Under the pieces are notes generated by a model. It was not told the DNA's origin. It did no database searches and saw only the letters and a list, made by a program, of their open reading frames with translations. A DNA stretch of 51,277 nucleotides from Escherichia phage tonnikala, in sequence record NC_049817.1, one strand, 5' to 3'. Shown piece after piece: positions 596 through 51,277 of the stretch (position 1 is its first letter; every line of letters starts with the position of its first letter). The position numbers and the translations under genes are program-made.

Positions 596-1072
596 TTAGC
601 TATTCGTGCTGTTATCACCTTTGTAGAATCGTCCGCCTGGTTCGTAGTCTGAATTTTTGACTACGCGCAACATTTCGTATTTGTCGCAACGGGTAGTAAG
701 AGGCTTGCCGTTAGAATCAAACCGCAGATCTGGACGACAAAACGAGGCGCGGTATCCTTTGCATCCATTATATTTGTAGTCGTTATGCACCTTTTGTGCT
801 CCAGCGGCTGAAATCATACCACGCTTTCGCCATTGGTTAACAACTTGCTGAGATACGCGCAGACGTCGAGCCATAGCAGGAACGCCGCCGTAATACTCGA
901 TCAGAATGTCAAGGCGAGATTTCAGGCTTGCTTTTACCTCATCTCGCAGGATAAGAAATCCGGTTCGGTGTTTTCGTGGCTTTTTGTCTTTACCTCGTCG
1001 CGTTCCGTTGTTACCGTTAATAGTGCGCTTGTCGATCTCACCCGTAGATACTGCAATTCGTGCATCTTTCAT
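596..1072 (-). CDS. helix-turn-helix DNA-binding protein (Cro/YdaS-like)
   Basis: 158 aa ORF with HTH-like segment AMARRLRVSQQVVNQWRKRG and basic N-terminus; sits between primase and helicase. Confidence 0.5.
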   Translation of the reverse strand: MKDARIAVSTGEIDKRTINGNNGTRRGKDKKPRKHRTGFLILRDEVKASLKSRLDILIEYYGGVPAMARRLRVSQQVVNQWRKRGMISAAGAQKVHNDYKYNGCKGYRASFCRPDLRFDSNGKPLTTRCDKYEMLRVVKNSDYEPGGRFYKGDNSTNS

Positions 1073-1103: not shown

Positions 1104-1159
1104 AGTTTATTGTAATGAGTCTATTATATGCTCCAAATGGCATTTTTTAAAGGTTTAAG

Positions 1160-5225: not shown

Positions 5226-6341
5226 ATGAAAAATGTAAAAATTACAGATGAGCAATTCAAGATCGAACGGGCGGCAGGTAAGACATATAAACAGATCGCT
5301 CAAGAGTACGGAATGAATGTTAGAAGCGTCGAGCGTCGCGCGGCGCGTCTTGCAAAGCAAGGACAGTTATCGACCATCGGAGCGCCTAGTTTTGGTGTTC
5401 ATGGTGAGTCAGTAATGACTGACAAAGAAGGAAATATAATCCTCAAGTGGACCAAAACCAGCAAGGATAAAGAGCAATTAGAGGCATTGATGCGCGCAGC
5501 TATGGAGGCGTTTAGCGAGGAAGTGCCGCGATTAGATCCAGTTCCATTGCAGGAGCGTAATTATAATGAAACGCTTTCATTGTATCCGATCTTTGACATG
5601 CACTTAGGCGCTATGGCCCATAAGCACGAATGCGGCGAAAATTGGGATACTGCGACGGCAGAGCGCGTTATGAATAACTTTATCGACTATGCTTTGATGT
5701 GCGCACCGGACAGCGAAAAGGCTGTTATCCTGATTGGTGGCGATATGCTGCATAGCGACGGCCTGGAGGCGGTGACACCTGCAAGCGGTCACGTACTTGA
5801 TCAAGATAGCCGATATGCAAAATTGGTTTACGTTGCAATCCGTGCAATGCGTCGCGCAATTAATAAAATGCTGTTAAAGCATAAACATGTTGAGGTCCAG
5901 ATCGTAGAGGGGAATCACGACCAATCAGGAATGATTTGGCTACGCGCAGCAATGGCGGCAGCATATGAGAACGAGCCGCGCGTTTACGTTGATGTTTCTC
6001 CTCGCGTTGTTCACCACACGCAATACGGAAAAACTTTCCTTGCGTACCATCACGGGCACACAGTGCGTAAACCGGAGACTTTGCTAATGATGTGCGCGTC
6101 AGATTGGCGGGAGGACTTCGGAAACTCAAAAACGATGTATGCGCACGTAGGGCACTGGCATCACCAGACCGTGACGGAAACGTCGCTTGGGATCGTGGAG
6201 GTACATAGCACCCTGGCAGCAAAAGACGCATACGCCGCGCGAGGTGGCTGGAGATCTCGACGCCGTGCGGCGGTTATCATTTACGACAAAGAGCATGGAG
6301 AAGTCGGGCGATTTGTTCACTATCCAGAAATGATGAGTTGA
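5226..6341 (+). CDS. calcineurin-like metallophosphoesterase with N-terminal sigma-70 region-4-like HTH
   Basis: Phosphoesterase motifs D-x-H (FDMHLG), GGD (IGGDMLHSD), GNHD (VEGNHDQ), HHGH, GHWHH; N-terminal TYKQIAQEYGMNVRSVERRAARL. Confidence 0.65.
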   Translation: MKNVKITDEQFKIERAAGKTYKQIAQEYGMNVRSVERRAARLAKQGQLSTIGAPSFGVHGESVMTDKEGNIILKWTKTSKDKEQLEALMRAAMEAFSEEVPRLDPVPLQERNYNETLSLYPIFDMHLGAMAHKHECGENWDTATAERVMNNFIDYALMCAPDSEKAVILIGGDMLHSDGLEAVTPASGHVLDQDSRYAKLVYVAIRAMRRAINKMLLKHKHVEVQIVEGNHDQSGMIWLRAAMAAAYENEPRVYVDVSPRVVHHTQYGKTFLAYHHGHTVRKPETLLMMCASDWREDFGNSKTMYAHVGHWHHQTVTETSLGIVEVHSTLAAKDAYAARGGWRSRRRAAVIIYDKEHGEVGRFVHYPEMMS

Positions 6342-6390
6342 TGAATTTTTATTTAAATCAATGACAAATTAAATCAAAAACTTGCAAAGG

Positions 6391-6417
6391 GGCGGCGTTT
6401 GTCGCCTCTTTTTTTTG
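6391..6417 (+). terminator. weak terminator-like hairpin with long T-run
   Basis: Short GGCG/CGCC stem followed by about 10 T residues after the phosphoesterase gene. Confidence 0.3.
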
Positions 6418-6486
6418 TTTAATTTTTTACCATGTGCGTTTATCATGCGGTCAATATATTGACTTTAATTAATATGGAGAATAAAA

Positions 6487-14664: not shown

Positions 14665-14936
14665 TACTTCTTGATCTCCTCACTGATAAATTTCAGCACC
14701 TGACGCAAGAAAACCTCGTTGTTGATAGTCGCTGGCAATTCTTCTTTCACTTCTTGCGGCAGATAGATATTGCCGTGCCAGGTCAAGCAATCGTAGTTGA
14801 TGCGATAAGAGCAAAGCCACTCGCAATCGTTATCTGCTTCCCAAATGCAGAGTTGCAGAACATCGCCGAAGTCTTCAACAGTCAGATCCAGACCGTGACG
14901 CTTAGCGAAATTGAAAGTGGTTTTGCTGATGTTCAT
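14664..14936 (-). CDS. hypothetical protein, first gene of leftward early operon
   Basis: 90 aa; AGGAG RBS 6 nt upstream of ATG at 14936. Confidence 0.5.
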   Translation of the reverse strand: MNISKTTFNFAKRHGLDLTVEDFGDVLQLCIWEADNDCEWLCSYRINYDCLTWHGNIYLPQEVKEELPATINNEVFLRQVLKFISEEIKK

Positions 14937-14994
14937 TGCTATCTCCTGAGCGGTTCGTTTCGATGTGTGTAATGTACCCGATCAGGTGGCCTGA

Positions 14995-15013
14995 GTTTTA
15001 ACAAAAAGTGCTA
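14995..15013 (-). promoter_or_regulatory. conserved intergenic motif copy heading the leftward early operon
   Basis: Reverse complement TAGCACTTTTTGTTAAAAC, then 18 nt, then TACATT (-10-like), then RBS and ATG at 14936. Confidence 0.45.
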
Positions 15014-15036
15014 TTTGACGGTTAGCGCCAGGATTG

Positions 15037-15135
15037 TGATCGAAATAATCAGAAGTAATCATTCGTAATCGAATCACGTCAAAATGATGATTGCCTTTGC
15101 AAATTTGATGAGAAAAGTAATCACGTTTAATCATT
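15037..15135. repeat. iteron-like cluster of TAATC-containing short repeats
   Basis: TAATC pentamer five times in about 90 bp (GTAATCA, CGTAATC, GTAATCACG, TTAATCA), beside the divergent promoter hub. Confidence 0.35.
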
Positions 15136-15569
15136 GGTTGCAGGGGAGATAGTGAAACCTTCCCCTCTTGCCTCACTTTTCCGCCTGGCTGTCAGTGGCT
15201 GTTGTCTTTTGTTCGCCCCTGTTACCGATTTCAGGCGGCGTGTTTCCGCGAGGTTTTCCGGTGTAGCGAAAACGGAAAAAACAAAAAAAATCCTATATAA
15301 TACATTGAAAATAAAGATTATTTATTTATATATATCTATAATGTTTTCTTTTTGTTCTCACTGTTACAGTGCTTTTTGCTGGGTGTGGTGTGGTTGTGTG
15401 TTGGTATATATGGATAGTTGCGCGCGCGGCGGATTGCATATGTATATATACTTTTTCCGGCGGATTGCGTTAACAGCGTGAACAGAAAAATAACAGCCCT
15501 GAAATCAACAACTTGCGCATGATTTTGTAGTTTTTCGATATTGGTAACGTTTTGAATACAACAAAAACA

Positions 15570-15597
15570 TTGACACGCACCAAATAGCTTTTATAAT
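15570..15597 (+). promoter_or_regulatory. sigma-70-type promoter for rightward early operon
   Basis: TTGACA (15570-15575), 16-nt spacer, TATAAT (15592-15597); about 30 nt upstream of the first rightward gene. Confidence 0.55.
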
Positions 15598-15628
15598 GCG
15601 CCAACAGTCAACAACTGGAGGAAAGGAA

Positions 15629-16093
15629 ATGGAACAGAAGACCACTAAGGACTATTGCGATTGGCTTCGCGAGCTTGGTCGCCGCCTGGCTAGTGGCGAT
15701 ATTGAAGAGTATAAAATGTCACTAATTGACCTGGCCGGAATGTTAAGCGGTGACGACTGCTACAAGATCACGCGCAGTTCATCCTACAGCCGGACCATTA
15801 TCAACCGCGTTCCAGAAGTAAGGGCCGCAGGTCGGGTAAGCATCAAGGTAGAGGAAACGGAAGATGATAAATTTTACGTTTTCCGCATGGTCCGAGAATC
15901 GAAAAGGAAAATCATCACGCCCGAAGAATTGCCAGCCATCAAGGCAAGGGCGATCAAAAAGTTTGCCGATCGCTTACTGGCAGCAATCCCGAACATCGTG
16001 GACCTGGAAGGGGATAAACTGGCTGGAGCTTGTGAGGGCGTAAGCCGCTACCAGGATATGATCCGCGAAATCATCAAAGAGGAGGAGCAATAA
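15629..16093 (+). CDS. hypothetical protein, first gene of rightward early operon
   Basis: Start set at MEQKTTKDY with GGAGG RBS; the track start at 15596 lies inside the promoter -10. Confidence 0.55.
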   Translation: MEQKTTKDYCDWLRELGRRLASGDIEEYKMSLIDLAGMLSGDDCYKITRSSSYSRTIINRVPEVRAAGRVSIKVEETEDDKFYVFRMVRESKRKIITPEELPAIKARAIKKFADRLLAAIPNIVDLEGDKLAGACEGVSRYQDMIREIIKEEEQ

Positions 16094-30057: not shown

Positions 30058-30083
30058 GGCGCTCGCTTGAGCGCCTTTTTTTA
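30058..30083 (+). terminator. rho-independent terminator
   Basis: GGCGCTC-GCTT-GAGCGCC hairpin followed by TTTTTTT. Confidence 0.55.
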
Positions 30084-30102
30084 TTATGTAAGGAGAAATG
30101 AA

Positions 30103-30885
30103 ATGGCTAAAGATTATTCATCTGTTATGGGTCTTTCTTGTCCTGGTTGTTTGGTTGATTCTACTCGCTACAATATTGATGGTACTGGCGTTTGTGGTTC
30201 TGAATCGATCATTGCTGGTAAGGTTGTTTTCTTTAAGGAGAGAATCGGCGGTTACAACATATTTGTTGACCACAAAGAGGAGGACGCTGTGGTTGCAGGT
30301 GTTGCGCTAAGGAGCAACATAACAACGACAGTTAACGAGGAAGACGGGTATTCCGACTACAAGGAAGGAGACGCCATCAACATTTTGACAAGAGGTGTTG
30401 TATGGTGTGTAACTCAAACAATTGAATCTCCCCCTGAGCATGGGGATCTTGTTTATGTTAACAATGATGGTTTTGTAGCAAAGAGTGATGGCGATGAAAT
30501 CGTCGATGGCTGGATTTTTACTGGTGACTTCTACAAGTTTGATGAAACAATAAACATAGTCGGAGTCAGAATAACGCCGCTTTATCATAGAAAATATCTT
30601 CTCACTGGTGCGATCATTGAGGCTGAAAATGGATACATAGAGGGAACAGAGACGATTGATAACGTCCAATTAAAGGTGACAGTTGTTCCGACTTGGGCCG
30701 ACGACAAAACTGGTCATTGGACAATTACAAATCCACAAGATCCAATGGTTGCCAGTGTTAGTCGAACAGGCCTTGTTGTTCCTACTGGTGTGGGAGGTAG
30801 AGTTAACGTCAACTGGACTGCTAATGATGGTTCTGGAGTTGCTGACCAGTTTGATATTGTATTTACGAAAACCGCTGGCGAATAA
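30103..30885 (+). CDS. head-associated protein with C-terminal Ig-like domain
   Basis: Start at MAKDYSS with AAGGAG RBS; N-terminal domain paralogous to previous gene; C-terminal beta-rich Ig-like segment. Confidence 0.45.
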   Translation: MAKDYSSVMGLSCPGCLVDSTRYNIDGTGVCGSESIIAGKVVFFKERIGGYNIFVDHKEEDAVVAGVALRSNITTTVNEEDGYSDYKEGDAINILTRGVVWCVTQTIESPPEHGDLVYVNNDGFVAKSDGDEIVDGWIFTGDFYKFDETINIVGVRITPLYHRKYLLTGAIIEAENGYIEGTETIDNVQLKVTVVPTWADDKTGHWTITNPQDPMVASVSRTGLVVPTGVGGRVNVNWTANDGSGVADQFDIVFTKTAGE

Positions 30886-30910: not shown

Positions 30911-30928
30911 GTTTAACAAAAAGTGCTA
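30911..30928 (-). promoter_or_regulatory. conserved motif copy in reverse orientation upstream of capsid gene
   Basis: GTTTAACAAAAAGTGCTA on + strand, followed by terminator hairpin and capsid RBS. Confidence 0.4.
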
Positions 30929-30935
30929 TCATCTA

Positions 30936-34662: not shown

Positions 34663-34681
34663 CTTTTAACAAAAAGTGCTA
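34663..34681 (-). promoter_or_regulatory. conserved motif copy in reverse orientation abutting RBS of tail chaperone gene
   Basis: CTTTTAACAAAAAGTGCTA followed directly by AAGGAG and ATG at 34697. Confidence 0.4.
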
Positions 34682-34696
34682 TAAGGAGATCTTGAG

Positions 34697-45288: not shown

Positions 45289-45306
45289 GTTTAGCAAAAA
45301 GTGCTA
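45289..45306 (-). promoter_or_regulatory. conserved motif copy (minus orientation, variant) heading leftward operon
   Basis: Reverse complement TAGCACTTTTTGCTAAAC, then 18 nt, then TATAGT, then AAGGAG RBS and ATG at 45239. Confidence 0.45.
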
Positions 45307-45677
45307 CTTGTTATTTTTTGTTTTTCGGTGTTATCGAATTTAAGACGGCGTAAATTTAGCTCAAATTTTAGCCAACATGAGAGCGATAAACAATCAATAA
45401 AATAGATATATACATATAAAATCAATAGTTTATTTATTTATGTATGTATATTTGTTTTTTCTTGTTATCTGTGTTTCTTGTGGTTTTGGTTGTTTGTGGT
45501 GATTTTTCTTTCTGAGTATCTGTATGTGCCATCATTCATGTGTATGTATATAATCCGGCGTATCTGAGAGAACAAAGGGAACAAGAAAAATAACACATAT
45601 TAATCATTGACTTACATTTCAAATTTGTTTTCTTGCAATCTAAGAACGTTTAGAAAACAGAAAAAACAAAACAACTA

Positions 45678-45705
45678 TTGACTAAATCAACCAAATGGCT
45701 ACAAT
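45678..45705 (+). promoter_or_regulatory. sigma-70-type promoter for rightward recombination operon
   Basis: TTGACT, 16-nt spacer, TACAAT; shares CCAAAT(A/G)GC spacer with the promoter at 15570. Confidence 0.5.
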
Positions 45706-45735
45706 GCACACACAAAGCAACAAGGAGCATCAAAG

Positions 45736-46791
45736 ATGAGTGATTTTAACGCCTACACTAGCGAAGAAATGAGCAATGAGCTTTATCATGATCCTAACGC
45801 GTGGACGGCTGAATACGTCAGCGGTTCCAGCTTGGCGGAGATTTACAGCACTTGCCCGGCGTACTGGAAGTACAAGCCTCGCCAGGAAACTAAGGCACTT
45901 GTTTTCGGTACGCAGTCGCATACCAATTTTGAAAGCAAGGAGTTATTCGAAAAAACATATCGCCGCGCACCGTCGCAGGATGATTTTAAAGATCTGATCA
46001 CAAGTCAAACGGCGTTAGCCTCAAAGCTGAAATCTTTTGGCCTGAAAGGTACAACGGGTAAGCAATACCCAGAATTGCTGGAAATGCTGTACAAGTGCGG
46101 TGAGGATCTCAATGTATGGTGGCTTATCGAAATGATGGCAGAATGCCAGGCCGCAGCGGACGGCGTGCAGTTAATCGACGCGAAAGATTATGATGCCTGT
46201 GTAGCGATGCGGCGCGTACTTGAGGCAATACCTGAGCATAATGCTTGCATGAATAGCCCAACCGCGCAGCGTGAAATGTCAATATTCGGGATCATCAATG
46301 GCGTAAAAGTTAAAGTGCGCCTTGATCACGTTGACGTAAACAAGGATGTAAAGGCCACAATCATTAACGGTTACGACGAAAAAGGCCGACCGATTTATGA
46401 AGAAGTCATCTATCCAGAAGCTGTGATTATCACTGACTATAAAACAACGGTTAGCGCAAATCCGGTTGACTTCCAGCGCCTGGCTTACAATCACGGCTAT
46501 TATCTCAAAATGGCTTTGCAGCATGATTTATTTAAAAAGGCGTATCCAGACGAGGAAAGGCCAGTAATTGTGAGATTGCTTGCTCAAGAGAAGAAAGAGC
46601 CTTACTTGCCGCTCGCATTCCGCATGAACATTGAGCAATTGAAGATCGGGCGTATCCAGTACATGAGCGTGATCAACAAGTTCAACGTTTGCCAACAGTT
46701 AGATGAATGGCCTTCGTATGCAAACGGGCAGCCAGAAATTGATCTTGATACTCCTGATTGGGTGCGCGCTCAATTCAGGCAGTATCTATGA
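45736..46791 (+). CDS. PD-(D/E)XK-family exonuclease (RecE/exonuclease VIII-like)
   Basis: 351 aa; D...E-x-K style core (VIITDYKTT); encoded just upstream of Erf and SSB. Confidence 0.5.
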   Translation: MSDFNAYTSEEMSNELYHDPNAWTAEYVSGSSLAEIYSTCPAYWKYKPRQETKALVFGTQSHTNFESKELFEKTYRRAPSQDDFKDLITSQTALASKLKSFGLKGTTGKQYPELLEMLYKCGEDLNVWWLIEMMAECQAAADGVQLIDAKDYDACVAMRRVLEAIPEHNACMNSPTAQREMSIFGIINGVKVKVRLDHVDVNKDVKATIINGYDEKGRPIYEEVIYPEAVIITDYKTTVSANPVDFQRLAYNHGYYLKMALQHDLFKKAYPDEERPVIVRLLAQEKKEPYLPLAFRMNIEQLKIGRIQYMSVINKFNVCQQLDEWPSYANGQPEIDLDTPDWVRAQFRQYL

Positions 46792-46866
46792 CAAACTAAA
46801 CAAATAGCTAAACTTTTATAATGGTTGGTGATATAATTCGCCAACCAGATAACGGGAGAATGAGAG

Positions 46867-47124
46867 ATGACAGATAAAGACAATGCCACATTATTGCATT
46901 TAGAGCGATTCATTGATCGAGTAACCATTGCAATGAAAGAATTTATTAAGCCGATGAACATTAAAGAGTCGGAAGAAATGAAGACTTACATCAAGGACGT
47001 GGTTGCATCCATTGACAACGTTATCCTTGTTGCAACGATGAGCAAGGGAAACAAAGAGCGCGAGAGATTGGTTGCTGAATCAACAGAAGAATTTATTAAA
47101 ATGCTTGAAAGCGAGAAGGAATAA
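46867..47124 (+). CDS. hypothetical protein
   Basis: 85 aa between exonuclease and Erf. Confidence 0.45.
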   Translation: MTDKDNATLLHLERFIDRVTIAMKEFIKPMNIKESEEMKTYIKDVVASIDNVILVATMSKGNKERERLVAESTEEFIKMLESEKE

Positions 47125-47781
<657 letters not shown>

Positions 47782-47786
47782 TAAAC

Positions 47787-47806
47787 GGGGCGCTTGCGCC
47801 CCTTTT
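47787..47806 (+). terminator. terminator-like hairpin
   Basis: GGGGCG-CTTG-CGCCCC then TTTTGTCA. Confidence 0.4.
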
Positions 47807-47824
47807 GTCATAGGAGAAAACAAA

Positions 47825-48271
47825 ATGCACGTTATTACAGGTGAGATCCGAAAAGAGCCAAAAGTAAAGCAAATGCCTAACGGTAGCACGCTATATGTTG
47901 TTGAGCTTTCCGAACGATATAAAGACCGTGAAGGCAATTGGCAGTATACAAACTATGTATTTTTCTTTAACGCGAAAACAGACGGCCTGAATGGTTGGTA
48001 TGCTGAGGCGTTCCAGGTAGGCAAGGTTATTTCTGTTTCCTGCGATACCTTGCGAGTTGAAACGCGAGAATACAACGGAAAGATTTACAGCACCGTGCAG
48101 CCTGGCGGATTTGCAAACTTGCTATTTAGCCAGCGTGGGGAAAGCCAGCAACAATATCAGCAGCGCACTCAAGGTGGATGGGGGCAACCACAACAGCAAC
48201 AAATCCCTCAACAGCAACCACAGCAAAGCAATCAGCCGCCGATTGACTTTGATGACGATATACCTTTCTGA
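47825..48271 (+). CDS. ssb: single-stranded DNA-binding protein
   Basis: OB-fold-like N-terminus, Gln/Pro-rich linker and acidic tip DFDDDIPF; AGGAG RBS before ATG at 47825. Confidence 0.8.
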   Translation: MHVITGEIRKEPKVKQMPNGSTLYVVELSERYKDREGNWQYTNYVFFFNAKTDGLNGWYAEAFQVGKVISVSCDTLRVETREYNGKIYSTVQPGGFANLLFSQRGESQQQYQQRTQGGWGQPQQQQIPQQQPQQSNQPPIDFDDDIPF

Positions 48272-50888: not shown

Positions 50889-51277
50889 TTATAGCAGTGA
50901 TTCGGGCTTGTAGAGTTTTCTTTCTACGCCCTGTTTAAAATTATCGTTAACAGGCATCATTATGTCAAGACCTCTTTCCTCTGCCGCGATTATCACATCA
51001 CGATCATCCTTCCGGCAGACTACGCGCATTCTTCTTTCTCCTTTATATCTATGCGCAACCATTTCAAGATTTGAAGGAGTAAAGCAAGCCCACACCTCTT
51101 GACCAGTTGATAAATGAACATGCTGGGAATCAACCCAATCAAGGCACAAATAGATCGTCTTATCCGTGCTACCTGTTTTAACAACAGATCCGCGCGTGTA
51201 GTCGCGAGCTAAAAACCAATCCTTTCCATCCTCATCAATGAAAAGCACGTTACACATTTCATCATCCACCAGGTGAC
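50889..51277 (-). CDS. hypothetical protein (5' end may lie beyond window)
   Basis: Open minus frame to window edge; track start at 51269 is GTG; internal ATG at 51255-51257. Confidence 0.4.
   Translation of the reverse strand, partial: HLVDDEMCNVLFIDEDGKDWFLARDYTRGSVVKTGSTDKTIYLCLDWVDSQHVHLSTGQEVWACFTPSNLEMVAHRYKGERRMRVVCRKDDRDVIIAAEERGLDIMMPVNDNFKQGVERKLYKPESLL

What the first reader, a model, noticed from the sequence alone, without database searches (positions are those of the whole stretch)
15180..15600. Unusually long non-coding hub at the first divergent point, collinear with a second hub at 45310-45710
About 690 bp (14937-15628) has no convincing ORF. It carries, in order, an ATTTATTTAT block, a GT-rich tract (GGGTGTGGTGTGGTTGTGTGTTGG), a TATGTATATATAC block, CCGGCG, GAACAGAAAAATAACAG and then a near-consensus sigma-70 promoter. 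The hub at 45310-45710 has the same ordered blocks ahead of its own promoter. This looks like a duplicated regulatory cassette, possibly a replication origin or an ncRNA locus.
Basis: seen in the sequence. Interest (0 to 1): 0.7.

Follow-up and report, generated by a model that had tools for sequence, protein, structure and literature searches.

The report
Twin non-coding hubs of T1-like phages
Two related ~380-bp stretches of non-coding DNA, each just upstream of one of this T1-like phage's strong early promoters, are conserved across the whole phage family and look like protein-assembly sites; they are the best candidates for the family's unknown replication origins, or else a shared control region for early genes.

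Summary
The window is a complete Warwickvirus (Drexlerviridae, T1-like) genome. Hub1 core (15198-15569) and hub2 core (45309-45677) align collinearly (local score 69 vs 13.4±2.0 in shuffles, z=28). Both are non-coding and not structured RNA. Both are under purifying selection: hub2 is 0.70 identical where adjacent four-fold sites are saturated at 0.47. A ~500-bp counterpart lies upstream of the exonuclease gene in all 43 related loci, T1 and TLS included.

Each hub runs from a leftward copy of the known 21-nt Drexlerviridae repeat to a near-consensus sigma-70 early promoter. Between them lie four ~27-bp T-rich units, two in each orientation. Three of the four carry TGTT/AACA motifs spaced one helical turn apart, and these make up all six such triplets in the genome. 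The hubs also hold two TA-rich blocks (the two least stable duplex segments of the genome), a CCGGCG clamp, and IHF-consensus sites at fixed positions. Hub1 additionally carries a ~180-bp insert that probably contains pac.

Best reading (~0.4): paired iteron/DUE/IHF replication-origin modules coupled to divergent early promoters, working like P4 ori/crr or SPP1 oriL/oriR. Main rival (~0.35): a purely transcriptional IHF-dependent upstream region. The binding protein is unidentified. The ncRNA reading is rejected.

The parts
14996..15014 (-). Hub1 left boundary: leftward copy of the Drexlerviridae 21-nt intergenic repeat (ATAGCACTTTTTGTTAAAA), about 60 nt upstream of the leftward gene start at 14936
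   Evidence: Exact match (23 matches in the genome vs 2.5 expected). The motif is described for TLS in PMC11447400.
15015..15195 (.). Hub1-specific insert, absent from hub2. It carries TAATC/GATTG-type pentamer repeats and a conserved GGGGAGATAGTGAAAC block (~15143-15158). Probable pac region.
   Evidence: It appears as a gap in the hub1/hub2 alignment. It holds 7 pentamers vs 1.1 expected. The T1 and TLS GenBank records start inside the homologous segment, and the TLS record begins exactly at the authors' deduced pac sequence AGATTT.
15198..15225 (.). Unit L (hub1): TGTT x3 at 15200/15210/15220
   Evidence: Direct repeat D1 with unit M; phased triplet.
15268..15291 (.). Unit A1 (hub1): A-rich inverted arm on the left of AT1
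   Evidence: WACA cluster at the conserved distance of 260-300 bp from the -35 hexamer; sequence.
15292..15341 (.). AT1 block (hub1): TATATAATACATTGAAAATAAAGATTATTTATTTATATATATCTATAA, a DUE-like segment
   Evidence: The least stable 40-bp duplex window of the genome (15294; -0.91 vs a mean of -1.37, sd 0.10). It is the most widely conserved part of the hub across genera.
15342..15367 (.). Unit M (hub1): TGTT x3 at 15342/15353/15362
   Evidence: (D1, I1).
15379..15404 (.). G/T-rich spacer (hub1). The sequence varies among relatives but the G+T bias is kept.
15437..15463 (.). AT2 block (CATATGTATATATAC) followed by the CCGGCGG clamp (hub1)
   Evidence: TATATA followed by CGGCG is conserved in Tempevirinae.
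15469..15496 (.). Unit R (hub1): GTTAACAGCGTGAACAGAAAAATAACAG, with AACA x3 at 15472/15481/15492, inverted relative to L and M
   Evidence: Resembles the P4 ori GGTGAACAG triplet.
15503..15515 (+). IHF core consensus site AATCAACAACTTG (WATCAANNNNTTR), hub1
   Evidence: Read from the sequence. Equivalent sites lie 76-80 bp from the -35 hexamer in related hub2 loci, an 18-fold enrichment.
15544..15569 (.). Unit P (hub1): A-rich unit abutting the -35 hexamer (the UP-element position), inverted copy of M
   Evidence: Inverted repeat I1, 28 nt, 71% complementary.
15570..15597 (+). Sigma-70 early promoter TTGACA-16-TATAAT (12/12), equivalent to TLS P01
15629..16093 (+). First early gene, DUF7174. 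It follows hub1 in the other Tempevirinae genera checked, with a sub-threshold match at this position in T1. The model looks winged-helix-like.
45289..45307 (-). Hub2 left boundary: leftward 21-nt repeat copy (GTAGCACTTTTTGCTAAAC, 2 mismatches)
45309..45335 (.). Unit L (hub2): TGTT at 45309/45319/45329
   Evidence: (D2).
45401..45450 (.). AT1 block (hub2), containing the IHF core consensus AATCAATAGTTTA at 45420-45432
   Evidence: Second least stable 40-bp window and least stable 100-bp window of the genome. The IHF site lies at d=257, conserved in Warwickvirus and Hanrivervirus loci and in L018/L025.
45447..45475 (.). Unit M (hub2): TGTT at 45453/45463/45472
   Evidence: (I2, I5, I7).
45538..45560 (.). 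AT2 block (TGTGTATGTATATAAT) plus the CCGGCG clamp (hub2)
45568..45596 (.). Unit R (hub2): AACA at 45571/45580/45592
   Evidence: (I2).
45602..45614 (+). IHF-like site AATCATTGACTTA (1 mismatch) at the conserved d~76 position
   Evidence: AAATCAnnnACTTA is nearly invariant in the alignment.
45650..45677 (.). Unit P (hub2), abutting the -35 hexamer
   Evidence: I5, I7, I11.
45678..45705 (+). Sigma-70 early promoter TTGACT-16-TACAAT, equivalent to TLS P51. It drives the exonuclease, Erf and SSB genes (45736-48271).

Best explanation
Each hub is a cis-acting site where proteins assemble on double-stranded DNA. My best guess is that the two hubs are the paralogous replication origins of this phage family, each physically coupled to a strong early promoter.

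Shown:
- A ~370-bp non-coding module is conserved in two copies per genome.
- It contains four ~27-bp T-rich units, two in each orientation. Units L, M and R each carry three TGTT motifs about one helical turn apart.
- It has two TA-rich blocks that are the easiest DNA in the genome to melt.
- It has a GC clamp and IHF-consensus sites at fixed positions.
- Both flanking promoters fire away from the hub.

Inferred mechanism:
- Host IHF bends the DNA.
- A phage-encoded protein that reads the TGTT (T1: TGTAAC) units coats the arrays. It is not identified. The winged-helix-like DUF7174 protein encoded just downstream of hub1 and the Cro-like HTH protein in the primase operon are candidates.
- Negative supercoils generated behind the two diverging RNA polymerases help open the AT1 block.
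- The phage SF2 helicases and the P4-alpha-type primase then enter.

An origin role does not exclude a role in controlling the adjacent early promoters.
For: - Paralogy is real (z=28).
- Hub2 is family-wide: all 43 exonuclease loci, including T1 and TLS, have a ~500-680 bp, ~33% GC gap.
- Purifying selection acts on the hubs. The hub2 core is 0.70 identical where four-fold sites are at 0.47, and 0.95 where they are at 0.80. The hub1 core is 71% identical where the adjacent gene is 60% at nucleotide level.
- All 6 phased TGTT/AACA triplets of the 51-kb genome lie in the hubs, at equivalent positions (P<=0.0005).
- Unit positions relative to the -35 hexamer are kept between Tempevirinae and Tunavirinae even though sequence identity has fallen to baseline, and the motif switches from TGTTC to TGTAAC in all units. 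Both subfamilies infect E. coli, so this argues for a phage-encoded reader rather than a host one.
- The AT1 blocks are the two least stable duplex windows in the genome, 4.6 sd below the mean.
- IHF consensus sites are enriched 18-fold at two fixed positions.
- No other region of the genome has origin-like anatomy, and the TLS authors found no origin.
- There are experimental precedents for two cis elements. In P4, ori and crr share TGTTCACC iterons, with GGTGAACAG x3 at 10-11 bp next to CCCGGCG. SPP1 has oriL and oriR 32 kb apart; the hubs here are 30 kb apart.
- The phage primase is homologous to the P4 alpha primase domain (E=1e-15).
- A third early sigma-70 promoter (HTH-primase operon) works without a hub, so the hub is not simply a promoter accessory.
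- Unit L persists in hub1 although no leftward promoter abuts it there.
Against: - There is no experimental evidence for initiation at the hubs.
- There is no extended homology to P4 ori or crr (z<=3).
- There are no DnaA boxes, and the cores are devoid of GATC in a GATC-rich genome.
- Within Tempevirinae the units show no genome-specific co-evolution (0.70 within genomes vs 0.69 between).
- Hub cores of different lineages coexist in one phage (atuna).
- T1 hub1 uses yet another repeat (CGATTAACA x3, period 9).
- Every hub carries a sigma-70 promoter, and the IHF site keeps a fixed distance to it. This, and the rough mirror arrangement of units around each promoter, is equally what a transcriptional upstream region would show.
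- No plasmid, satellite or E. coli genome carries a hub-like sequence.
Confidence: 0.42

Rival explanations
1. The hubs are purely transcriptional upstream control regions. The hub is two roughly mirrored upstream modules, each ordered as proximal unit, inverse unit, IHF site, distal unit. One module serves the rightward sigma-70 early promoter and the other serves the leftward 21-nt-motif promoter. IHF bending brings distal A/T-rich DNA or a bound regulator to RNA polymerase, as at lambda PL. Alternatively, IHF binding in the easily melted AT block passes superhelical destabilisation on to the promoter, as at ilvPG. A phage protein bound to the units would switch early transcription on or off.
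For: - Both hubs end in the only strong intergenic sigma-70 promoters of the genome, equivalent to TLS P01 and P51.
- Unit P occupies the UP-element position and is A-rich in the window.
- An IHF consensus site sits 76-80 bp upstream of the -35 hexamer in both subfamilies.
- Unit L abuts the leftward 21-nt motif in hub2 and in T1 hub1.
- The order of unit orientations around each promoter is mirrored.
- Precedents exist: Giladi 1998 and Parekh 1996, cited in PMC1784095.
- The promoter is part of the duplicated cassette.
Against: - 370 bp is far more than known early-promoter upstream regions need.
- There is no phased A-tract (curvature) signal.
- In T1 the promoter-proximal unit is not A-rich, so it is not an UP element.
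- The third early promoter has no hub.
- In Tempevirinae hub1 the left module has no adjacent leftward promoter yet is conserved.
- The two IHF sites lie at different distances from their promoters.
Confidence: 0.35
2. The hubs encode one or more small non-coding RNAs, as a paralogous sRNA pair.
For: - The region is long, conserved and non-coding.
- There is a terminator-like hairpin at 15359-15371.
- There is a weak TATAAT-containing promoter-like site at 45526-45554.
Against: - No Rfam family matches; the best hit scores 24 bits against a gathering score of 75.
- Folding z-scores are -0.2, -1.6, -1.9 and 0.0.
- RNAalifold on 19 diverse sequences gives -6 kcal/mol and no local helices.
- The hairpin and the internal promoter-like site are not conserved between hub1 and hub2 or among relatives.
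- Conservation is in short blocks typical of protein-binding sites.
Confidence: 0.03
3. The shared core is a packaging (pac) or recombination site.
For: - The T1 and TLS records begin inside hub1, and TLS pac was mapped there.
- Hub2 precedes the recombination genes.
Against: - The record starts and the pac assignment fall in the hub1-specific insert, not in the shared core.
- Hub2 lacks that insert.
- A phage that packages by pac-initiated headfuls needs only one pac.
Confidence: 0.05
4. The hubs contain unannotated small protein genes. Some GenBank records annotate 37-48-aa CDSs here.
For: - ORFs of 115 aa (15134-15481) and 64 aa exist in hub1.
- KMB46 and other records annotate small CDSs in the region.
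Against: - The 115-aa ORF is frameshifted in ~98%-identical relatives, and its substitutions are not biased by codon position.
- No ORF is conserved in position, strand or length across 16 homologues.
- Hub2 has no ORF longer than 44 aa.
- The curated BASEL record leaves the region unannotated.
Confidence: 0.02

Closest known systems
Satellite phage P4 ori + crr (alpha-protein type-1 iterons TGTTCACC)
   Same: - Two separate cis elements in one genome share short iterons in both orientations.
- Iterons occur in triplets at 10-11 bp spacing. P4 ori has GGTGAACAG x3; the window has GTTAACAGcGTGAACAGaaaaaTAACAG; TLS has GTGAACAcGTGAACAG.
- AT-rich DNA and a CC(C)GGCG motif lie nearby.
- The phage primase is homologous to the alpha primase domain.
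   Different: - There is no extended sequence homology.
- The full octamer is not used.
- The Drexlerviridae primase lacks the alpha helicase and origin-binding domains, and no origin-binding-domain homologue was found.
- The hubs carry strong outward promoters and IHF sites.
- Origin function is untested.
Bacillus phage SPP1 oriL / oriR
   Same: - A virulent pac-type siphovirus has two related origins about 32 kb apart, bound by one phage protein.
- Its exonuclease, recombinase and SSB genes sit under an early promoter (PMC3561973).
- Here the hubs are 30 kb apart, and hub2 drives the exo-erf-ssb genes.
   Different: - The host and the proteins are different.
- No G38P homologue was looked for or found.
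- SPP1 origins are experimentally proven; these are not.
Iteron plasmid origins with IHF (pSC101, R6K gamma type; from general knowledge)
   Same: The hubs combine direct repeats, an AT-rich unwinding block, an IHF site, and a promoter at one edge that reads into a gene for a small winged-helix-like protein.
   Different: - The repeats are T-rich and of low complexity, arranged as two-plus-two inverted units.
- There are no DnaA boxes or GATC clusters.
IHF-dependent upstream regions of lambda PL (distant UP element) and ilvPG (supercoil-destabilised UAS)
   Same: An IHF site about 75-110 bp upstream of a sigma-70 promoter is embedded in very A/T-rich, easily melted DNA.
   Different: - The hubs are three times longer and duplicated.
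- They contain four phased repeat units.
- The units are not A-tract-like in T1.
21-nt intergenic direct repeat of TLS/T1 (aaATAGCACnnnTTGnTAAAA)
   Same: The left boundary of each hub is an inverted copy of this repeat, pointing at the leftward genes.
   Different: The repeat explains only ~20 bp of each hub, and its own function is unknown.

Membership tests
P4-type ori/crr origin | Multiple copies of the octamer TGTTCACC in both orientations | tested here: not met
   The P4 octamer was confirmed from NC_001609. The hubs have the TGTT(C/A) core and one GTGAACAG (7/8) but no full octamer arrays.
P4-type ori/crr origin | Two separate cis elements sharing the iteron | tested here: met
   Hub1 and hub2 share the units and lie 30 kb apart. 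Whether both are required for replication is not testable here.
P4-type ori/crr origin | Alpha-type protein with primase, helicase and C-terminal origin-binding domain | tested here: not met
   Only the primase domain is homologous (E=1e-15 to alpha residues 20-263). The neighbouring 158-aa protein is Cro-like and shows no similarity to alpha.
P4-type ori/crr origin | Sequence homology to P4 ori or crr | tested here: not met
   Smith-Waterman z<=3 for the window, TLS and T1 hubs. One motif-driven z=6.7 appears for W011D vs crr.
Iteron-type replication origin (generic) | Array of repeated protein-binding units | tested here: met
   Four ~27-bp units per hub. All 6 phased triplets of the genome lie in the hubs, P<=0.0005.
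Iteron-type replication origin (generic) | Adjacent AT-rich DNA-unwinding element | tested here: met
   The AT1 blocks are the first and second least stable duplex windows in the genome.
Iteron-type replication origin (generic) | Host accessory sites (IHF and/or DnaA boxes, GATC clusters) | tested here: inconclusive
   IHF consensus is enriched 18-fold at fixed positions. There are no DnaA boxes and no GATC in the cores.
Iteron-type replication origin (generic) | Cognate initiator protein that binds the repeats | tested here: inconclusive
   [not shown]
Iteron-type replication origin (generic) | Replication actually initiates there | not testable with these tools
   This needs marker-frequency analysis, 2D gels or plasmid amplification assays.
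Sigma-70 promoter with IHF-dependent upstream activating region | Near-consensus -35/-10 hexamers | tested here: met
   12/12 at 15570-15597 and 10/12 at 45678-45705. These correspond to TLS P01 and P51.
Sigma-70 promoter with IHF-dependent upstream activating region | IHF site at a fixed distance upstream | tested here: met
   d=68 in hub1. d=76-80 in the Hanrivervirus loci, L014/L015 and nearly all T1-group loci; the Tlsvirus-type loci carry no perfect-consensus site.
Sigma-70 promoter with IHF-dependent upstream activating region | A-tract UP element or intrinsically curved upstream DNA | tested here: inconclusive
   Positions -38 to -46 are A-rich in the window. There is no 10-11 bp AA/TT periodicity, and the T1 counterpart is not A-rich.
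Known ncRNA family (Rfam) | Covariance-model match, or conserved structure with covariation | tested here: not met
Drexlerviridae 21-nt intergenic repeat | Match to ATAGCACnnnTTGnTAAAA oriented toward the downstream gene | tested here: met
   14996-15014 (-) with 0 mismatches and 45289-45307 (-) with 2 mismatches. This applies to the hub edges only.
pac site region (hub1 insert only) | Packaging series starts here | tested here: inconclusive
   The TLS and T1 records begin in the homologous segment, and TLS pac was mapped by restriction analysis. There are no terminus data for this phage.

The most novel reading that the evidence does not exclude
The hubs are the two replication origins of the T1 family, working as a 'split P4' system. 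The P4-alpha-type primase has lost its own origin-binding domain and relies on a separate hub-binding protein, perhaps the winged-helix-like DUF7174 encoded immediately downstream of hub1, together with host IHF. Origin melting at the AT1 block is powered by the negative supercoils generated between the two strong divergent promoters. Early transcription would then license replication without DnaA.
Probability: 0.15. Interest if true: 0.75.

Novelty: new variant of a known kind. Interest (0 to 1): 0.55.

Why it matters
T1 is one of Delbrück's original T phages, and Drexlerviridae are among the most frequently isolated coliphages (BASEL collection, therapy cocktails, laboratory contaminants). 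Yet their replication origin and early-gene control are unknown. The 2024 TLS re-annotation reports that the authors found no origin-type repeats anywhere in the genome, and lists open questions about intergenic repeats (PMC11447400).

This work defines, to the base, a conserved pair of non-coding modules. They are the only origin-like DNA in the genome and also house two of the three host-polymerase early promoters. That turns an open question into direct experiments: marker-frequency mapping, hub deletion, and IHF or phage-protein binding assays.

It also gives annotators a reason to stop calling spurious small CDSs there. For genome engineers it marks regions to preserve, or to exploit as portable early promoter/origin cassettes.

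Tried and rejected
- **ncRNA.** Rfam gathering and permissive scans, single-sequence folds on both strands and RNAalifold were all negative.
- **Coding.** ORF conservation across 16 homologues and a frameshift check rejected this.
- **Cruciform.** DNA folds of the AT1 palindrome gave z=-2.4 and -1.3, and the R-P region gave ~0. This is weak and was not pursued.
- **Intrinsic curvature.** AA/TT 10-11 bp periodicity is unremarkable. A full wedge-model curvature calculation was not run.
- **Third hub.** The TGTT-rich 30080-30600 region is coding.
- **Homology to P4 ori/crr.** None beyond the iteron core.
- **P4-type origin-binding domain in the 158-aa HTH protein.** None found.
- **Within-genome concerted evolution of units.** My early impression did not hold inside Tempevirinae (0.70 vs 0.69). 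Only the contrast between subfamilies stands.
- **Borrowed copies.** No hub-like DNA in 5,426 E. coli genomes or 72,556 plasmids.
- **oriC-type marks.** No DnaA boxes or GATC clusters.
- **Alternative origin candidates.** The 6340-6486 and 1072-1160 gaps have no repeat arrays.
- **Literature.** Searches for T1-family origin, transcriptome or hub descriptions found only the TLS paper. The T1 (Virology 2004) and Rtp genome papers are not held.
- **Host response regulators.** ArcA/OmpR-type regulators were considered as readers of the phased TGTTA/GTTACA repeats, from memory only. This was not tested and fits poorly with the motif differences among phages of the same host.

Full report
**What the window is.** The 51,277-bp window is a complete, circularly permuted genome of a Warwickvirus (Drexlerviridae, Tempevirinae; T1-like). 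Hub1 is 97-99% identical to phages JLBYU19, Poky, tonijn, SECphi27 and FritzSarasin/Bas04. Gene order matches T1 and TLS. The P4-alpha-type primase gene runs across the window ends.

**Checking the observation.** Hub1 15200-15570 aligns collinearly with hub2 45309-45678. The local score is 69, against 13.4 ± 2.0 for dinucleotide shuffles (z=28), and the best unrelated place in the genome scores 21. Hub1 carries a ~180-bp insert (15015-15195) that hub2 lacks. The conserved left-edge motif is the reverse complement of the 21-nt repeat aaATAGCACnnnTTGnTAAAA. That repeat was described for TLS, with unknown function (PMC11447400). The window holds 23 matches against 2.5 expected.

**Non-coding and not RNA.**
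- No ORF is conserved in place, strand or length among 16 homologues.
- The 115-aa ORF in hub1 is frameshifted in ~98%-identical relatives.
- Rfam gives nothing.
- Folds of either strand have z-scores between 0 and -1.9.
- RNAalifold on 19 diverse hub2 sequences finds only a weak 260-nt-range pairing that reflects inverted repeats.
- Both flanking promoters read outwards, so the hub should not be transcribed.

**Conservation.** All 43 IMG/VR loci encoding a relative of the exonuclease have a ~500-680 bp, ~33% GC gap upstream. These include T1 (L041) and TLS (L045). The hub2 core is more conserved than synonymous sites of the adjacent gene:

| Comparison | Hub2 core identity | Four-fold site identity |
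|---|---|---|
| L007 | 0.95 | 0.80 |
| Hanrivervirus loci | 0.70 | 0.47 |

The random-alignment baseline is 0.46. The hub1 core is 71% identical to W011D, where the adjacent gene is 60% identical at nucleotide level. Hub1 counterparts exist in T1, TLS, pSf-1, atuna, PaulSarasin and W011D. In each of these checked (T1, TLS, pSf-1, atuna, PaulSarasin) the hub is followed by a DUF7174 gene; T1's ST77 matches only below the Pfam threshold.

**Anatomy.** Anchoring on the -35 hexamer gives this order:

1. Leftward 21-nt motif.
2. Unit L (TGTT x3).
3. A CGGCG motif.
4. Unit A1 (AACA-type, inverted).
5. AT1 block.
6. Unit M (TGTT x3).
7. G/T-rich spacer.
8. AT2 (a TATATATA run) plus the CCGGCG clamp.
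9. Unit R (AACA x3).
10. IHF site.
11. Unit T2.
12. Unit P, which abuts the -35 hexamer.

L, M, R and P are copies of one ~27-bp T-rich consensus, two in each orientation.

- All six phased (9-12 bp) TGTT/AACA triplets of the genome fall in the hubs, which make up 1.5% of the sequence. They sit at the L, M and R positions of each hub (P≤0.0005 against composition-preserving shuffles).
- Unit positions are the same in Tempevirinae and Tunavirinae, although sequence identity between the subfamilies is at baseline.
- The motif becomes TGTAAC/GTTACA in T1-group hub2. There, 7 of the 24 genome copies lie within 500 bp.
- Inside Tempevirinae the units do not co-evolve genome by genome, and T1 hub1 uses CGATTAACA x3. 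The case for a phage-specific reader therefore rests on the contrast between subfamilies only.

**Physical and host-factor features.**
- The AT1 blocks (15294-15333 and 45401-45440) are the two least stable duplex windows of the genome, 4.6 sd below the mean. The R-P part of hub2 ranks third at 100 bp.
- A-tract phasing is unremarkable, and cruciform potential is weak.
- IHF core consensus sites are 18-fold enriched. They occupy two fixed positions: d≈257 inside AT1, and d≈76-80, which is kept in both subfamilies on opposite strands.
- The window has perfect IHF sites at 15503-15515 and 45420-45432.
- The hub cores have no GATC, although the genome carries 6.05 per kb, and no DnaA boxes.

**Promoters.** The hub promoters correspond to TLS P01 and P51. 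These are two of only three sigma-70 promoters the TLS authors accept. The third, P57, drives the HTH-primase operon and has no hub.

**Hub1 insert.** The T1 and TLS records begin inside the homologous segment, and TLS position 1 is the authors' deduced pac sequence AGATTT. TAATC/GATTG pentamers are 7-fold enriched in the insert. It is therefore probably the pac region, and it is distinct from the shared core.

**Interpretation.** The hubs are cis-acting double-stranded DNA elements that assemble IHF and at least one repeat-reading protein. Two readings survive.

- **Origin (~0.42).** The hubs combine iteron-like arrays, the most meltable DNA in the genome, IHF sites and a GC clamp. No other region is origin-like. 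A P4-alpha-type primase is present. Two-element origins have precedent: in P4, ori and crr share TGTTCACC iterons, with GGTGAACAG triplets at 10-11 bp next to CCCGGCG, and SPP1 has oriL and oriR 32 kb apart. Divergent transcription would supply negative supercoils to open AT1; this step is inference.
- **Transcriptional upstream region (~0.35).** Every hub ends in an early promoter. The IHF-to-promoter distance is fixed. The units are arranged roughly as mirror modules around the two divergent promoters. Lambda PL and ilvPG provide mechanistic precedents.

The two readings are not exclusive.

Membership in the P4 ori family fails. There is no full octamer, no origin-binding domain and no sequence homology. 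The claim is therefore 'may work like', not 'is a member of'.

**Novelty and score.** No paper held in the library describes these hubs; only their promoters and the 21-nt repeat are published. They are a new variant of a known kind of element (iteron/DUE/IHF origin or upstream region), not a new category. Interest is 0.55. The element is real, conserved and unannotated in a classic phage family, and it makes the family's unknown origin directly testable. Its function is unresolved.

Noticed in passing
window 30911-30929 (-) and 34664-34682 (-): Two perfect or near-perfect copies of the 21-nt Drexlerviridae repeat lie on the minus strand inside the rightward late (structural) region, each next to a terminator-like hairpin. 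This is opposite to the 'always in the direction of transcription' rule reported for TLS. They may be antisense promoters or bidirectional elements.
   Followed up: no
window 15015-15195: The hub1-specific insert has TAATC/GATTG pentamer repeats (7 vs 1.1 expected) and a conserved GGGGAGATAGTGAAAC block. The T1 and TLS GenBank records begin in the homologous segment, and TLS starts exactly at its deduced pac sequence AGATTT. This is probably the pac region.
   Followed up: partly
[not shown]
   Followed up: partly
window 50889-51277 joined to 1-~550 (-), and 596-1072 (-): The P4-alpha-type primase gene (309 aa, CPxCGGKDRFR zinc motif) is split by the window ends, so the window is a permuted complete genome. 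It is co-oriented with a Cro-like HTH protein (phrog_2856). That protein's N-terminal STGEIDKRxINGNNGxRRGKDKKPR segment is almost invariant between T1, TLS and this phage.
   Followed up: partly
window ~1122-1150 (-): A third early-type promoter (TTTAAA-17-TATAAT), equivalent to TLS P57, lies upstream of the HTH-primase operon. It is back-to-back with a 21-nt repeat that points at the helicase gene.
   Followed up: partly
whole window; hub cores 15195-15575 and 45305-45685: GATC is very frequent in the genome (310 sites, 6.05 per kb; the phage encodes a Dam-type methylase region) but is completely absent from both hub cores.
   Followed up: partly
L054 (phage atuna, MN850620.1) vs window 14937-15630: The left ~260 bp of atuna's hub1 is nearly identical to the window's, but its hub1 core is of the Hanrivervirus (pSf-1) type, while its hub2 is 97.7% identical to the window's. 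Hub cores appear to be exchanged as mosaic modules, with a breakpoint at the insert/core junction (~15195).
   Followed up: partly
search hits: About 17-18 GenBank records named 'Campylobacter phage' (MG0656xx, host C. jejuni), plus a 'Streptococcus phage MBBL140' and a 'Pseudomonas phage Motto', carry Drexlerviridae hub sequences at 73-85% identity. These are probably coliphage contaminants or mislabelled hosts.
   Followed up: no
L018, L023, L025 (hub2 homologues): In this clade the CGGCG motif after unit L and the CCGGCG clamp after AT2 are both replaced by CCACCGC. This is a paired change of two motifs ~220 bp apart, which suggests both are read by the same factor.
   Followed up: no
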